This document shows, piece by piece, positions 30,001 through 36,000 of a DNA stretch of 64,000 nucleotides (within the stretch, counting starts at the first letter, position 1; every line of letters begins with the position of its first letter). Location of the stretch: NCBI RefSeq assembly GCF_045037415.1, contig NZ_CP173438.1. One strand, given 5' to 3'. The DNA comes from Escherichia coli (GTDB taxonomy: Bacteria > Pseudomonadota > Gammaproteobacteria > Enterobacterales > Enterobacteriaceae). Made by a program: the position numbers.

Positions 30001-33000
30001 GATGAAAGTGGGGGAGGAAATGAGTCAGAACCTGTACACCAGCATTAGGGGATTCCGCGTCTGGTACAAAGCAGACTATGAGAAGAGAGACGCTATAACA
30101 TTTGAGTCCTACCAATCGATCTGTTCATTTCTATGAATGGCAGTAAATGCAAATAACCAGAACAACCAAAGGTTTTTCGACTTATGTGTCACGAACGGAA
30201 GTAGATGGCAATCCATTGCATTACTTCAGGACGACTTTTCAGAAAGCGAGCTAAGGGCGTTGGCATAAACTCAGGCATCGGATGCTGTTTTACAGGGTTC
30301 ACCTGCCATCCAGTAGACGCCCCAGCCCACGACTGCAACCATAATTACGTTGCCCGGAACCGTCATGCTGCTTCGTCTCATATTTCACGAGATAACTGGC
30401 TCTGTTCCGGGCTTTCTGCATCGCTTCCACATCACCACGCTTGACCCAGAGCACAGCGGATCCACCCGGCTTTTTGTCTGAAGCCTTCCTGGTTTCAGAA
30501 CATCCACCCGACAAAGGCGTATCATCGGAAGAAGGGCGAGCATCAGATGATGTCGGTTTACGGAAAGGCGTCCGCCTGGAAAAATGAACCAGTCCATTAC
30601 CCTGCCAGGGCTCAAGATGCAGAGCACTACACCATGCCAGCTTGATCAGTGTCGCCAGCGAAGAAGGAACGGTGAAATCCCCTGGCGAGCACCAGGTATC
30701 TTTGTTGAGCAGTAATATCACGTGATAATGTTTCCTGCCTTTTTCCTTGCCAAACTCCCGGCACCAGAAATAACGCAGGCTGGTTGCATGCACACGCTGA
30801 TTGGCACATCTTTTTTTCCGCTGGTAAGCCTGAATTTTGGCTTTCAGGGATGCAAAAAAACGAGAAATCACCGCTGAATCCGGATCGGGATCCATGATGG
30901 TGACAGGCATATACTCAGGGAAACGTAAATCCACTCGGATTAACGAGACGGCACGGTGCTGCGCCAGGGCACTGTCGAGAAGGATGTCAAAACGGGATAA
31001 CCAGTAAGCATTGTGTATTGGTTGATTCATGATGAGAGATCTCCGTTGATTTGGATTGACTTCACATCATTCATCAACGCGGTAAAACTTTACGGCATCC
31101 GGCATTGAGCAATGCTACAACTCTCTGATTAAGAGTGATTGAAACGGAACAAACCATCCCGGAACGAAAAGATAATCCTGCACACAGCAGCAAAACACGC
31201 AACAACAGCATGAATGGATTTAAAAACGACATGGACGACGAGAAAAGCCTGAAGGGAAAAGGATCCACAGAACATTCGAACAAAACACCAGAAACGCAAC
31301 CAGAACGCTTCCTGGCAATGCAAATCAACAACAACACCAAAACCTACAGCTTAACCACACAACTCAATCACAGAGCCGAATAGCGCACTTAAAACCTGTT
31401 TACAGATAACCCTGCCACAAGAACAAAAACCACCAATATCAGAATCGATTTTCTTATCCTGAAAACGTTACTTTTCAACACACCATAAAAACGATTAACC
31501 ATCGATAACGTAAATCTCATCTGAATCAAAACACCAGAACCAATCATCACGCTTTTTCTGAAAAGAGCCTTATGATAAAGATAATCACCTTGCACTGAGA
31601 AAAAACACCAGGGCCAGTTAATCATCTCATCAATCTCATCGTCACAAAATCATCCATAGAACCATTTAACAAAATCGTCGCAAGCACACCGTAAATCACA
31701 CCAGGTTATCTCAGTCGGATTTGCGTTTTTACATAAAGACACTTGTTTCAGATTAACGATCTAAAACACGAAAACTCAGAAAAGGTTAAACGTAACTTCA
31801 GCAAAATAGAATGCCATCTTGATTGCTTAAACAGGAAAGATTGTTTTGTGGCAGCATTAAACTGATTTTAATTTTCGTAAACACAGGAGTAACAATTTTA
31901 CCAAACTGGATGTGTATCAGACAAAGCAATGTGTATTGTAATGTTTAATGAAAACACTTTTAGAAGTGTTTATGAAAATACGTGTATGTCTGGTAAAACA
32001 CTTAGTAGAAAATACGTGTATAACACTTACTGAAATGCTTAGTAAAAATACTTAGTAAAATATGTGTATATAGTATCATACCGACATTCTCAATATCTTC
32101 AGACTTCCATACATACTAGGTGTTAATTTTTCACTTTTACAGCCAGCATGGAGTTTTCTGTCCTAAAAACAGAGCAGATTTACTCTGGAATTATTTTTCT
32201 GCCCCCGTACTTCAGGCCCCAGAAAAGACAATCCGAAGCAAACCGTTTGTCAACCTCCATATCATCTTTTACCCCCGGAAAGTGATCGCGTTTTACAACC
32301 AGAATGACAGCCATACTGATTATGTCGTCTCCCGGCCCCTTCACATATAACATGCATGTCTGTCATTGCTTACTGCTCTACATGACAGGATTTCACATAC
32401 AGGATGCGCAGTCAGTGTTTTTATCGCCACTATAACAGACAGATTACTGTCGCTTTTACTCTTCAGATTGTTAATCTGACCACAAGAACAGTCGAACAGT
32501 ACAACGACACACCTAAGGAGGATATGATCCGTAGTTGATAGCATGTTTTATTTTATTATGAATAGATCAAGAAATAGTTCTTGATATGTCTGGAATAGTT
32601 TTGTGAATAGTTCTAGAATATCCCCATAATCAGCTTTGAGGTGCTTGCAGGGTGATATTTTTATTGATTCCCTTGCATATACAACTGACATGTGATGGTG
32701 AAAATCACCAGAAAAGAAAACGATTGAGGCGTAATCAGATGAAACAATATAAAGGCGGTTATAACGTGAATAGATATGACTGGAAAAATAAAACAACTGA
32801 GCATTTATTGAATGATAATAATCTGGCAGATAATCACATACCTGAATGGATCAGAAAAAATGAAATTGCAGCATTCTGGTTCTGGTTAATTATGTCTCAT
32901 ACAGTTCCCGAAAAACTTAAACTTAATAATGAATCTGAGTTCAATTCTGCCTTGAAGGGGGTGATCGTTATGAAGGATAACCCCATGACAATTATTCCTT

Positions 33001-36000
33001 CAAGTCATGAAACACGACTGAATGTTATAGGGAAATGGATTAATGCGTTAATCCTTTATGGGGAAGCAGATCGGATTATCTCAATAATGCATCAAAACTG
33101 GCTGGGACTCGAAAAGAGAAACGAAGCCAAATGGCTTAAAAAGAATACCGAACAACTGAAATGGGCATGGGAATATATTGATGCACGTATCTCACCCACA
33201 TATCTTTCCTGGTTTAATCCTGTAAATGATAACGAAAGATATATTGCCATTGTAGTTTTACTAAAAATGTTATTCCCCACAGACACACCCTGTTTACTGA
33301 CGCCAAAAGAATTTCACCTAGGATTCGCTGCAAAAGAAAGATTTTTCGACAAGATGCACAATGCATTCAGAAAACAGTTTATCGATGGAAAAAAAGATAA
33401 ACGGGTACAAATCAACGTAAAGATATCGCCATCCGCAAAAAGCGCTCTGGACAGACTGACCAGAGAGCGGAAAACAACACAGCAGGCTATTCTGGAACAA
33501 CTGATTCTGTACGGTAGACTGGATTAACTTTCACCACTTTCGCTCCTAGCGATTTTCTTCTTTTTGTAGTGTCTGCTTGCTGCGGGCATCAGGTATTTTT
33601 CCGTCATTTTGTTGCAGAACGCTTCAATGTAGTTAACCATTTTCTGGTGTGCTTTCACCTTTTCCTCCCCAGGGGACATTTTCAGATAAATGTCCTCCTT
33701 TTCCACAAGTGCATTTATAAACTCCTCTAAACATCCCTGGTTATAAAGCGACGTGAAAAACAACACATTCCCCAGTCTCTCCAGTAATTGCGATTTAACC
33801 CTGTATTGTTGTTTTCTGAGAATTGATTGTTTTCTAAAGCTCAGTCTTGTTAAAAGTTGTTCAAATCTTGGTTCAAATTTAAAAACAGATTTTAATCTTA
33901 GGGATTGATACTCCTGATAAAACAGTTCAAACGTCGGGGATGCTGACCGAAGAACAGGTCGGGCCACAGCCCGTGGACTAAATCCCATGACTGAGATTTC
34001 CTTTCCCTCCTCCTGCAAGTTCAGAGGCAGTTCAGCAATCCATGCGTCCAGCTTAGCTGAATCGCTCTCCTTGCTCAAAACCTCATACAAACTGCCCGTG
34101 AACGGTTGAGCCGATTTTGGGGTTGCTTCACCTTTTGACTGTCTGAATCCATCCACTTTTCTCCGGATACTACGCGGAATCAGCATAAAAGGCGGGGCAT
34201 TAAGAGATAAATGTTTACCAGTCATACGATGGCATTGTCCCACCTCGATCCAACAGGAAAATTTACTAACCGACCTTATCTTAAGCGCAATTATGTTAAG
34301 CAGGTACAGATAACGCACCGTATAACGATTAAAATGTTTCTCAGGATCAAACGATTCTGACCGTTCCCCTCTGTACACAAGTCCACTACGCTTCAGTATT
34401 CGCTGGGTATCTTTCCAGGCCTGACTTTTACAAATGCTCATTCGGCGTAGCGTATTAATCGACAGTGATGCCATCACTCCTCCCGAACTTTGTCACTCCA
34501 GATTTTTTCACGCCCATATTACCTGAATGATAAACCGGATTAGTGTGATCCGGTTCAGTGAAATCAACAGGATACCGGTATGTCATTCAGCCATTCTTCC
34601 CTCTCCGCACAAGTGAAATCATATCTGACGTTTCTTCCTGAAGAAATTCGCCAGAAAATCCTTGAACATCTCCACAGTGTTATTCATTACGAGCCCGTGA
34701 TTGGCATTATGGGTAAATCCGGCACCGGCAAAAGCAGCCTGTGTAATGCCATTTTTCAGTCCCGTATCTGCGCCACGCATCCCCTGAACGGCTGCACCCG
34801 CCAGGCTCATCGTCTTACCCTGCAACTCGGTGAACGCAGAATGACGCTGGTCGATCTGCCCGGCATTGGTGAAACACCGCAGCATGATCAGGAATACCGG
34901 ACACTTTATCGTCAGCTGCTACCGGAACTGGATCTGATTATCTGGATCCTGCGGGCAGATGAACGCGCGTATGCCGCCGACATTACCATGCATCAGTTTT
35001 TACTGAATGAAGGCGCAGATCCCTCGCGTTTTCTGTTTGTTCTCAGCCATGCCGATCGCGTGTTTCCTGCTGAAGAATGGAATGCCACAGAAAAATGCCC
35101 GTCCCGTCAGCAGGCGCTCTCACTGGCGACGGTGACAGCCCGGGTGGCAACCCTGTTCCCTTCATCATTTCCAGTACTCTCCGTTGCTGCACCTGTCGGC
35201 TGGAACCTTCCGGCGTTTGTGTCGCTGATGATCCACGCACTGCCACCACAGGCAACCAGCGCGGTGTATTCACATATCCGGGGAGAAAACCGCTCTGAAC
35301 AGGCCCGGAAACACGCACAACAGACTTTTGGTGAAACCATCGGGAAAAGTTTTGACGACGCCGTTGCCCGTTTCAGTTTTCCGGCCTGGATGTTACAGCT
35401 TCTGCGCAAAACCCGGGACCGCATTATCCACCTGCTGATCACACTGTGGGAGCGTCTGTTCTGACACACTCACGCCGACAGGATGTGTCGCTGGATTAAC
35501 GAGCATTCTTCTTTTTATGAAATCATGCTTAAAAATCAGATAATTAAAAGAATATTTTTTCTGCTGCATTTTATTCCTGATTATCCGGATGCGACACATC
35601 CTTTCAACATCATGATGCATAATAACATCATGAAATAAAAGATGTTTTCTTACGGAGTGCACATCTATGTCTGATAATCGTTCCCGGCATGATCGCCTGG
35701 CGGTTCGCTTATCACTCATTATCAGCCGACTGATGGCCGGAGAATCTCTGTCACTAAAAACACTGTCAGATGAATTTGGCGTTACAGAACGTACTTTACA
35801 GCGCGATTTTCATCAGCGTCTGGTTCACCTGGATTTAGAGTACAGAAATGGCAGGTACAGCCTCAGACGACAGAGCAGCCCAGGTGCGATCCCTGAAATG
35901 CTTTCTTTTATACAGAATACCGGGATCGCACGGATACTTCCGCTCCGGAACGGACGACTGATAACCTGTCTTACCGACAACCAGGAGCCCTCTCCCTGCC

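What the first reader, a model, noticed from the sequence alone, without database searches (positions are those of the whole stretch)
31031..34579. Uncharacterised convergent gene pair plus iteron-like repeats in the variable cargo slot between a YfjJ-like gene and a YeeP-like GTPase gene
In CP4-57 of K-12 the interval between yfjJ and yfjP carries anti-phage and toxin-antitoxin cargo (yfjK/yfjL, rnlAB). Here the equivalent slot holds two genes I cannot place in any family. One is about 262 aa with a Trp-rich N-terminal domain and a C-terminal ribbon-helix-helix-like tail (32739-33527). The other is 317 aa (33524-34477), convergent, with 3' ends overlapping by 4 bp. They are preceded by a 1.5-kb AT-rich leader containing iteron-like direct repeats (31929-32069). 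Position, orphan status and architecture make this the best candidate for an undescribed defence or maintenance module in the window.
Basis: partly seen in the sequence, partly recalled or inferred. Interest (0 to 1): 0.8.

Follow-up and report, generated by a model that had tools for sequence, protein, structure and literature searches.

The report
Conserved orphan gene pair in island backbone
Two uncharacterised genes that looked like strain-specific cargo are a fast-evolving, conserved pair in the backbone of a very common enterobacterial genomic island, and one of them is probably a DNA-binding regulator with a swappable sensor-like domain.

Summary
Gene A (32739-33527, +, 262 aa) and gene B (33524-34474, -, 316 aa) converge on a shared TTAA. 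They lie behind a 1.7-kb AT-rich leader with clustered repeats, between a YfjJ-like HUH gene and a YeeP-like GTPase gene. Neither matches Pfam, NCBIfam, PADLOC, PHROGs or PDB.

The "variable cargo" reading is only partly right. Nine distant B relatives (Salmonella, Citrobacter, metagenomes) each sit convergent with an A homologue. Where the contig extends far enough, they lie beside the same GTPase/AlpA/HUH genes. The 376/407-aa proteins that fill the slot in other E. coli are B-family members with an N-terminal extension. Klebsiella keeps A alone. So the pair is island backbone with diverged alleles.

The 31929-32069 repeats belong to a conserved non-coding leader found in 1861 of 5426 E. coli genomes. 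It is present whether or not gene A is there.

A ends in a ribbon-helix-helix domain. 11-bp-phased GAATAG repeats lie in its own promoter region. Its N-terminal domain is exchanged as a sharply bounded cassette.

Best guess, confidence 0.4: an island regulatory module, with A as an Stl/CopG-like repressor. B's biochemistry is unknown. No evidence of defence was found.

The parts
30299..31030 (-). YfjJ-like HUH (rolling-circle Rep-like) gene, 'inovirus Gp2 family'. It forms the left flank and is always adjacent to the leader.
   Evidence: RefSeq annotation. PHROG replication-initiation hits. 31% identity to K-12 YfjJ, E 1.5e-25. A KHYHVILLL motif is visible in the translation.
31031..32215 (.). 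Conserved non-coding leader (island backbone), AT-rich. Its + strand is C-rich and G-poor over 31100-31750.
   Evidence: About 85% identity across 13 distinct variants, whatever occupies the slot. The core 31850-32215 is in 1861 of 5426 E. coli genomes, up to 7 copies each, and is never annotated. No Rfam hit. No protein remnants by tblastn. Only weak consensus RNA structure.
31135..31383 (+). RefSeq-annotated 82-aa 'hypothetical protein'. Probably not a gene.
   Evidence: The reading frame is broken by stops or frameshifts in 10 of 13 leader variants.
31929..32074 (.). Repeat array: AAATAYGTGTAT x3, AYRCTTAGTA x3, and the inverted repeat AAACACTT/AAGTGTTT. It lies between a leftward promoter-like site (31924-31895) and a rightward TATAGT (32069-32074).
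   Evidence: for the repeats. Unit copy number varies between variants. The leftward promoter-like site comes from the scan. The rightward TATAGT was read directly from the sequence.
32500..33400 (+). Hypervariable cassette: the promoter region of gene A plus the coding sequence of its N-terminal domain.
   Evidence: L027 is 94-100% identical to the window everywhere except this stretch, where identity is 32-75%. At the protein level the A N-domain is 38% identical, the RHH 94% and the B N-terminal half 100%.
32560..32622 (+). GAATAG(W)T direct repeats with a period of about 11 bp, overlapping a promoter-like site (32601-32630). Probable RHH operator.
   Evidence: There are four perfect 11-bp-spaced copies in L002 and L022 and two each in L027 and L029, although the surrounding sequence has diverged. 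The repeats are absent upstream of the L003 allele, whose RHH differs.
32739..33527 (+). Gene A, 262 aa: a Trp-rich all-helical N-terminal domain (aa 1-205) plus a C-terminal ribbon-helix-helix (about aa 221-259).
   Evidence: dN/dS is 0.3-0.5 overall and 0.11-0.29 in the RHH.
33524..33527 (.). TTAA that carries the stop codons of both genes.
   Evidence: Conserved in six E. coli alleles. In other genera the two genes are 15-121 nt apart.
33524..34474 (-). Gene B, 316 aa, basic (pI 9.85), predicted helical, in a family with no known relatives. Motifs: AWxNTQxxLKRSG, IVPxxIRRKAxxFxQ, GSLY, LECxRLG, LGxALFFxxLY.
   Evidence: dN/dS is 0.34-0.54.
34478..34579 (.). Divergent B/GTPase control region. 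It holds a perfect inverted repeat AACCGGAT-N7-ATCCGGTT (34533-34555), nested in a 16-nt inverted repeat that covers the GTPase start codon.
   Evidence: The region is 96-100% identical among variants. It is also retained upstream of the 376/407-aa B-long genes.
34580..35464 (+). YeeP/YfjP-type GTPase gene, the first gene of the rightward operon (WYL regulator, DUF905, DUF932, ArdB, RadC, CbeA/CbtA and others).

Best explanation
A and B are a conserved, fast-evolving two-gene module of the island backbone, not cargo. The island belongs to the tRNA-integrated family that carries integrase, AlpA, HUH/YfjJ, GTPase, RadC and CbtA genes. The module sits where the leftward excision/replication genes (HUH, AlpA) meet the rightward GTPase-to-CbtA operon.

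Shown:
- The pair is syntenic and co-inherited across Enterobacterales.
- A carries a C-terminal ribbon-helix-helix DNA-binding domain.
- Phased GAATAG repeats lie in A's own promoter region.
- A's N-terminal domain is exchanged as a discrete cassette while the RHH and B stay almost unchanged.

Inferred: A is a dimeric RHH repressor that binds the GAATAG array and so autoregulates. It probably also controls the divergent HUH/AlpA operon. It would then act like a master repressor such as SaPI Stl, or like a CopG/RepB copy-control protein. Its variable Trp-rich domain would be the part that senses an inducer or partner.

B is transcribed divergently from the GTPase operon and runs antisense into the 3' end of A. 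It would be a second, basic regulatory or DNA-associated partner. Its biochemistry is unknown.

The 31929-32069 repeats are a separate control or origin-like site that belongs to the conserved leader beside the HUH gene.
For: Synteny. Every B-family context examined outside the close E. coli alleles has a convergent A homologue: L007, L008, L009/L010, L013, L014, L015, L016/L017 and L020. Partners not used to train the A profile score E 1e-32 to 1e-45. Where the contigs are long enough, the same GTPase, AlpA and YagK_YfjJ genes flank the pair.

E. coli slot alternatives are B homologues.

RHH: (UniProt names two relatives 'RepB family').

Operator-like array: GAATAG at 11-bp spacing is retained upstream of all five alleles that share the KRVQINVKIS strand. 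This holds even where flanking DNA is only 38-49% identical. The array is absent from the allele with a different RHH.

Cassette swap: DNA; protein.

Position. In Citrobacter (L009), an unnamed NCBI genome (L013) and Klebsiella (L018), A lies divergent from alpA (and HUH genes in L009 and L013) across a 0.37-0.4 kb intergenic region. This is the classic repressor/operon layout.

Both genes are under purifying but relaxed selection, dN/dS 0.3-0.55.

Literature. These islands are described as widespread uncharacterised mobile elements with integrase, excisionase, HUH and RadC/CbtA modules (PMC12458937 section 11). A Pseudomonas counterpart has many conserved ORFs without database matches (bioRxiv 10.1101/2024.08.29.610337).
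Against: There is no experimental or expression data.

The RHH hits are individually weak. The AF2 model is mediocre for A (pLDDT 65) and unusable for B (47.6).

The GAATAG correlation rests on six alleles that share ancestry. The repeats were not found upstream of the Citrobacter allele, whose RHH is similar.

In E. coli, A is 1.7 kb from the HUH gene, so direct control of that promoter is speculative.

A-only islands (Klebsiella) and B-long-only islands (E. coli) show that the two proteins do not strictly need each other.

Nothing indicates what B does.
Confidence: 0.4

Rival explanations
1. The pair is an undescribed anti-phage or phage-interference module. The hypervariable N-domain of A would sense a phage component, and B would be the effector.
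For: The island family is a known carrier of defence genes (PMC12458937; K-12 AbpAB and RnlAB in the equivalent interval). Cassette-like diversification of A's N-domain and relaxed dN/dS resemble arms-race genes. Both families are unknown, so nothing excludes an effector role.
Against: No PADLOC hit for A, B, B-long or distant members. B has no recognisable enzymatic or membrane motif. The position is fixed and syntenic beside the GTPase and AlpA/HUH genes in several genera, whereas cargo moves. Visible cargo (Mrr-like REase, TIR protein, acyltransferase) sits on the other side of the HUH gene.
Confidence: 0.2
2. The leader repeats plus A form the replication-control unit of the excised island. 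The repeats mark the origin or Rep-binding site for the adjacent HUH protein, and A is a CopG/RepB-type copy-number repressor.
For: The leader always adjoins the HUH gene. It holds clustered short repeats with variable copy number in AT-rich DNA. A family members hit the PF10723 'Replication regulatory protein RepB' family. PHROG links the HUH gene to replication initiators.
Against: The repeats are 12-14 nt with irregular spacing (34 and 48 nt), and they lie about 900 bp from the HUH start. No nick-site hairpin was identified. The leader shows no significant similarity to the equivalent intergenic DNA of Salmonella, Klebsiella or Citrobacter. Replication of these islands has not been shown.
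Confidence: 0.2
3. A and B form a toxin-antitoxin or addiction pair. A would be a HicB-like antitoxin with a C-terminal RHH, and B the toxin.
For: Many antitoxins carry an RHH. The two genes are tightly linked and co-inherited. The island already carries CbtA/CbeA.
Against: The genes are convergent, not co-transcribed. B-family genes exist without A in most E. coli islands, and A exists without B in Klebsiella. There is no similarity to any toxin family.
Confidence: 0.07
4. The ORFs are decaying remnants or spurious calls in H-NS-silenced AT-rich DNA and have no function.
For: The GC content is low, there are no domain hits, and the neighbouring 82-aa ORF is indeed spurious.
Against: Both ORFs are intact at 23-30% identity across genera, with conserved motifs. 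dN/dS is below 0.55. The exact allele is present at >= 99% identity in about 290 genomes.
Confidence: 0.03

Closest known systems
Ribbon-helix-helix repressors of mobile elements (Arc/Mnt of P22, CopG of pMV158, Pfam RepB-RCR_reg PF10723, omega of pSM19035)
   Same: The C-terminal 40 residues of A align in register with the strand-helix-helix of these proteins and give weak Pfam and PHROG hits. Short direct repeats phased at one helical turn lie in its own promoter, as with omega heptads or CopG operators (established knowledge).
Master repressors of phage satellites and prophages (SaPI Stl, phage CI)
   Same: It works alike in layout. A conserved DNA-binding part is joined to a highly variable part that is swapped between alleles. 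In L009, L013 and L018 the gene is transcribed divergently from alpA (and HUH genes in L009 and L013).
   Different: There is no sequence or fold relationship: Stl and CI use HTH domains. No helper or inducer is known, and neither derepression nor excision has been tested.
K-12 CP4-57 interval yfjJ-yfjP (abpAB, yfjM, rnlAB)
   Same: The same type of island and broadly the same interval, between a YfjJ-family gene and a YfjP-type GTPase gene.
   Different: K-12 has no A or B homologue and no leader homologue. There is no blastn match at E 1e-3 and no tblastn match. yfjJ is co-oriented with yfjP there, whereas the two are divergent here.
Int/AlpA/HUH(Gp2-like)/RadC genomic islands described in PMC12458937 and bioRxiv 10.1101/2024.08.29.610337
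   Same: The same backbone gene set is present: AlpA, HUH endonuclease, RadC/ArdB and CbtA/CbeA 'moron' module. No integrase or tRNA gene was found in the window; an integrase is seen in related islands. Cargo differs between copies, and conserved ORFs lack any annotation.
   Different: In the passages read, those papers do not describe the A/B pair or the leader, and mobility of the enterobacterial version is only hypothesised.

Membership tests
Ribbon-helix-helix (MetJ/Arc) superfamily: C-terminus of A | Sequence-profile match to the strand-helix-turn-helix core, in register | tested here: met
Pfam RHH_1 E 0.02-0.14 in 3 of 8 members. PF10723 at E <= 1e-3 on two distant members. PHROG Arc-like E 0.005. 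Each hit is weak, but they agree.
Ribbon-helix-helix (MetJ/Arc) superfamily: C-terminus of A | Dimerisation through an antiparallel beta-ribbon that inserts into the major groove, with sequence-specific DNA binding | not testable with these tools
   The AF2 monomer gives two helices (231-243 and 248-257) and low confidence for residues 219-228. No multimer or DNA modelling was available.
Known anti-phage defence systems (PADLOC-DB v2) | Profile match of at least one component to a defence or candidate-defence family | tested here: not met
   No hit for A, B, B-long (376/407 aa), Salmonella A and B, or P0104. The only hit was a 16-bit wHTH match on the Klebsiella A tail.
Variable cargo slot (defence hotspot) | Unrelated gene sets occupy the same interval in different copies of the element | tested here: not met
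   All occupants examined are A and/or B family members. The same pair sits in the same position in other genera. The interval is polymorphic only in allele and architecture.
Type II toxin-antitoxin module | The two genes are co-transcribed and strictly co-occur, and the toxin belongs to a recognisable fold | tested here: not met
   The orientation is convergent. B-only and A-only islands exist. No toxin-family hit.
Iteron-type replication origin | Three or more direct repeats of about 17-22 bp at regular spacing, beside the gene of the initiator that binds them, with an adjacent AT-rich unwinding element | tested here: inconclusive
   The repeats are 12-14 nt, spaced 34 and 48 nt start to start, with two interleaved motifs and variable copy number. 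The neighbour is an HUH (rolling-circle) protein, not an iteron-binding Rep. The AT-rich context is present. Binding was not tested.
Structured non-coding RNA (leader) | Match to a curated family, or a conserved secondary structure with covariation | tested here: not met
   No Rfam match except a 19.9-bit chance hit inside the HUH gene. RNAalifold on 13 variants of 32061-32215 gives -10 kcal/mol, with a covariation term of -0.3 or -0.1 depending on strand. Only that segment was tested.

The most novel reading that the evidence does not exclude
A is the master switch of a very common but uncharacterised class of enterobacterial islands, present in about a third of E. coli genomes. Its cassette-swapped Trp-rich domain would recognise a specific helper, such as a phage or conjugative-element protein. 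On recognition it would release the RHH from the GAATAG operator and trigger HUH/AlpA-driven excision, replication and transfer. B, a protein family with no relatives, would be a new kind of partner or effector in that switch. This would define a new repressor family and make the mobilisation signal of these defence-carrying islands directly testable.
Probability: 0.15. Interest if true: 0.7.

Novelty: new variant of a known kind. Interest (0 to 1): 0.45.

Why it matters
Islands of this type are in roughly a third of sequenced E. coli (leader in 1861 of 5426 genomes), and also in Salmonella, Klebsiella and Citrobacter. They ferry defence, virulence and resistance cargo. How they are regulated and moved is not known (PMC12458937).

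The A/B pair and the conserved leader sit at the junction of the two backbone operons, and they are the only backbone parts here with no annotation at all. If A is the repressor with an exchangeable sensing domain, it offers a concrete way to find what induces these islands. If instead the pair is a defence system, it would be a new one. Either way, the finding corrects the picture of this interval: it is diverged backbone, not a cargo slot.

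Tried and rejected
Sequence and profile searches for A and B found nothing beyond weak RHH hits on A. These covered Pfam, NCBIfam, PADLOC, PHROGs, and PDB sequence and profile searches.

The search for related loci on the genome collection first failed because the alignment was too diverse. It then returned a single Citrobacter locus.

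Leader checks:
- No protein remnants.
- No Rfam family.
- No convincing RNA structure in 32061-32215.
- A 12-nt match (AAATACTTAGTA) between the E. coli repeats and the Klebsiella A promoter looked suggestive, but 65 of 500 shuffles did as well, so it was dropped.

The annotated 82-aa ORF was rejected as a gene. No K-12 homologue of A, B or the leader exists in CP4-57. Searching papers for the RefSeq protein accessions found nothing.

The toxin-antitoxin and decaying-ORF readings were considered and ranked low, for the reasons given under the rival explanations.

Full report
**Observation**

The ORF list shows a + strand ORF at 32652/32739-33527 and a - strand ORF at 33524-34477. RefSeq annotates both as hypothetical proteins of 262 and 316 aa in genomes that are 100% identical over 31031-34579. 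One TTAA carries both stop codons, and it is conserved in the six E. coli alleles I compared.

The left neighbour (30299-31030, -) is an 'inovirus Gp2 family' / YagK_YfjJ protein. It has an HUH-like KHYHVILLL motif, PHROG hits to replication initiators, and 31% identity to K-12 YfjJ. The right neighbour (34580-35464, +) is a YfjP/YeeP-type GTPase.

The 1.7 kb between the HUH gene and gene A is AT-rich, with GC 0.31-0.43. Two short motifs are each found three times in the 64-kb window, and all copies fall within 31976-32069. TRF reports a period-13 array there.

**No known family**

Neither protein matches Pfam, NCBIfam, PADLOC, PHROGs or any PDB sequence, whether searched as a single sequence or as a family profile.

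**The pair is backbone, not cargo**

A profile of B searched against 1.84 billion representative proteins found only 47 matches, about 16 of them full length at 23-31% identity. I looked up the genomic context of seven of these (P0092, P0104, P0106, P0111, P0115, P0118, P0121); an eighth context, in Salmonella, was reached through an A homologue (P0131).

- In every context the B-like gene is convergent with a 257-333 aa gene.
- The partners that had not been used to build the A profile score E 1e-32 to 1e-45 against it.
- Where the contig is long enough, the pair lies between a YeeP-like GTPase (followed by WYL, DUF932, ArdB, RadC and CbeA/CbtA genes) and AlpA plus YagK_YfjJ genes.
- Named hosts are Citrobacter and Salmonella. 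The A family also occurs in Klebsiella and Serratia.

Within E. coli the interval is polymorphic, but its occupants are related. Some islands carry diverged A+B alleles at 70/81%, 50/about 95% or 26/55% identity. Others carry one 376- or 407-aa gene on the - strand. That gene matches the B profile at E 4e-15 and 2.5e-9 and adds an N-terminal Cys/His-rich extension.

NU14 has the same left-hand context as the window but the 407-aa form. This shows allelic replacement within one island. A Klebsiella pneumoniae island has an A homologue directly upstream of the GTPase gene and no B.

K-12 CP4-57 has neither A, B nor the leader. Its interval holds abpAB, yfjM and rnlAB.

By DNA search, A is in about 556 of 5426 complete E. 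coli genomes, B in about 742, and the exact allele in about 290.

**The leader and its repeats**

The block 31031-32215 is retained at about 85% identity next to the HUH gene in all 13 distinct variants examined, including those without gene A. Its core is present in 1861 of 5426 genomes, in up to seven copies, and is never annotated.

- The repeat units vary in number between variants.
- The array lies between a leftward promoter-like site with an extended -10 (31924-31895) and a rightward TATAGT at 32069-32074 (read from the sequence).
- I found no protein remnant, no Rfam family and no persuasive conserved RNA structure in 32061-32215.
- I found no significant similarity to the corresponding DNA of other genera.
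- The annotated 82-aa ORF inside the leader is disrupted in 10 of 13 variants.

So the 'iteron-like' array is real. It belongs to the HUH-side backbone, not to gene A. Whether it is an operator cluster or an origin cannot be decided here.

**What A looks like**

The last 40 or so residues form a ribbon-helix-helix, on several concordant weak lines of evidence:

- Pfam RHH_1 (E 0.02-0.14).
- PF10723 on two distant members, and UniProt names on two others.
- A PHROG Arc-like hit.
- An in-register hhalign match to Arc/Mnt/CopG/NikR/omega at 84% probability.

Upstream of A, at 32560-32622, are GAATAG(W)T repeats at about 11-bp spacing that overlap a promoter-like site. The same repeats are present upstream of every allele that shares the KRVQINVKIS strand: four perfect copies in L002 and L022, and two each in L027 and L029. 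This holds where the neighbouring sequence is barely alignable. They are absent upstream of the L003 allele, whose RHH differs. That pattern is what an RHH operator would look like, but the sample is small.

The most striking feature is the mosaic. L027 is 94-100% identical to the window from the HUH gene to the GTPase gene, except for 32500-33400, where identity falls to 32-75%. At the protein level the A N-domain is 38% identical, the RHH 94% and the N-terminal half of B 100%. So the promoter and N-terminal domain of A are exchanged as a unit.

dN/dS is 0.11-0.29 for the RHH, 0.36-0.6 for the N-domain and 0.34-0.54 for B. These are real genes, but fast-evolving.

**What B looks like**

B is basic (pI 9.85) and predicted helical. 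Its invariant residues are W20, Q24, L56, P100, R105, K106, Q112, L129, Y130, E188 and F240 (window B numbering), and no motif is recognisable.

It is always transcribed away from the GTPase gene across about 100 bp. That stretch is 96-100% conserved and holds a perfect inverted repeat. I cannot assign it a biochemical activity.

**Interpretation**

The best-supported reading is that A/B is the backbone's regulatory module at the junction of its two operons.

- A would be an RHH repressor that at least autoregulates.
- In other genera it is divergent from alpA (and HUH genes) across 0.37-0.4 kb, the layout of a master repressor.
- Its exchangeable N-domain is the kind of feature seen in satellite and prophage repressors that sense different inducers. 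That comparison is a functional analogy from established knowledge, not homology.

I put this at 0.4. The rivals are a new defence or interference pair (0.2), a replication-control unit with the leader as origin (0.2), a toxin-antitoxin pair (0.07) and non-functional ORFs (0.03).

**Context from papers**

PMC12458937 (section 11) describes islands with integrase, excisionase, HUH endonuclease and a RadC/ArdB-CbtA/CbeA module. It calls them widespread, uncharacterised, defence-carrying mobile elements that may act as satellites. bioRxiv 10.1101/2024.08.29.610337 describes Pseudomonas islands with IntY, AlpA, RadC and an inovirus Gp2-like protein that are moved by a jumbo phage and contain many conserved ORFs without database matches. 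In the passages I read, neither mentions the A/B pair or the leader.

**Verdict**

The feature is real and undescribed, but less exotic than proposed. It is a diverged backbone module with a probable RHH regulator, in a common island family. It is not a novel cargo system in a hotspot. Interest is 0.45. Novelty: a new variant of a known kind (a mobile-element regulator), with one partner family of entirely unknown function.

Noticed in passing
window 29093-29971 (-): The Mrr-like restriction endonuclease gene has one extra base (GCGGTTCTC against GCGG-TCTC, near 29745) compared with the intact RefSeq gene WP_000769117 in NZ_CP033884. This splits it into two ORFs (29092-29778 and 29729-29971). 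It is a frameshift pseudogene or a sequencing error.
   Followed up: partly
window 31135-31383 (+): The RefSeq-annotated 82-aa hypothetical protein inside the leader is interrupted by stops or frameshifts in 10 of 13 variants of the leader. It is probably not a gene.
   Followed up: yes
window ~31213; L006 6178-7330, L026, L029: This point in the leader takes insertions. There is a 0.9-kb insert with a 176-aa ORF in L006 and L026, and a 1.4-kb insert with an SH3-like ORF in L029.
   Followed up: partly
window 31100-31750: There is strong strand asymmetry in non-coding DNA. The + strand is A-rich and C-rich but G-poor (AT skew up to +0.39, GC skew down to -0.35), so a rightward transcript would resemble a Rho-loading (rut-like) region. 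This is unexplained.
   Followed up: no
window 34523-34590: A perfect 8-bp inverted repeat AACCGGAT-N7-ATCCGGTT (34533-34555) is nested in a 16-nt inverted repeat whose right arm covers the GTPase start codon. The whole 100-bp B/GTPase intergenic region is 96-100% conserved among otherwise diverged variants. It may be an operator or a translational hairpin.
   Followed up: partly
window 29092-30298 and the equivalent interval in L003-L006: The interval on the other side of the Gp2-family gene holds unrelated genes in different copies: a Mrr-like REase here, a TIR-domain protein in L004, an acyltransferase in L003 and L006, and three hypotheticals in L005. It looks like the real cargo slot of this island.
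   Followed up: partly
L031 (NZ_OP290546.1, plasmid pNDM5_LS003) 1-10739: A fragment of the island (AlpA, HUH, YfjI, HUH, leader, A, B, but no GTPase operon) sits on a conjugative IncI-gamma/K1 NDM-5 plasmid next to repA. A second plasmid, NZ_CP010123.1, carries B at 98% identity with only the last 26 codons of A.
   Followed up: partly
L018/L019 (Klebsiella pneumoniae) 9389-12051: A compact Klebsiella island (integrase, type I R-M, AlpA, A homologue, GTPase, ArdB, RadC, CbeA/CbtA, DUF4942) has an A homologue of 362 aa co-directional with the GTPase gene and no B gene. Its promoter region has AAATAC/GTATTT inverted repeats. Their resemblance to the E. coli leader repeats was not significant against shuffles.
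   Followed up: yes
L004 7520-8650, L005 7494-8717 (E. coli B-long genes): The 376- and 407-aa B-family proteins have an N-terminal extension with a C-x4-C ... C-x2-H pattern (zinc-ribbon-like) and occur without gene A. One possibility is that the extension replaces the DNA-binding role of A. There was no Pfam hit.
   Followed up: partly
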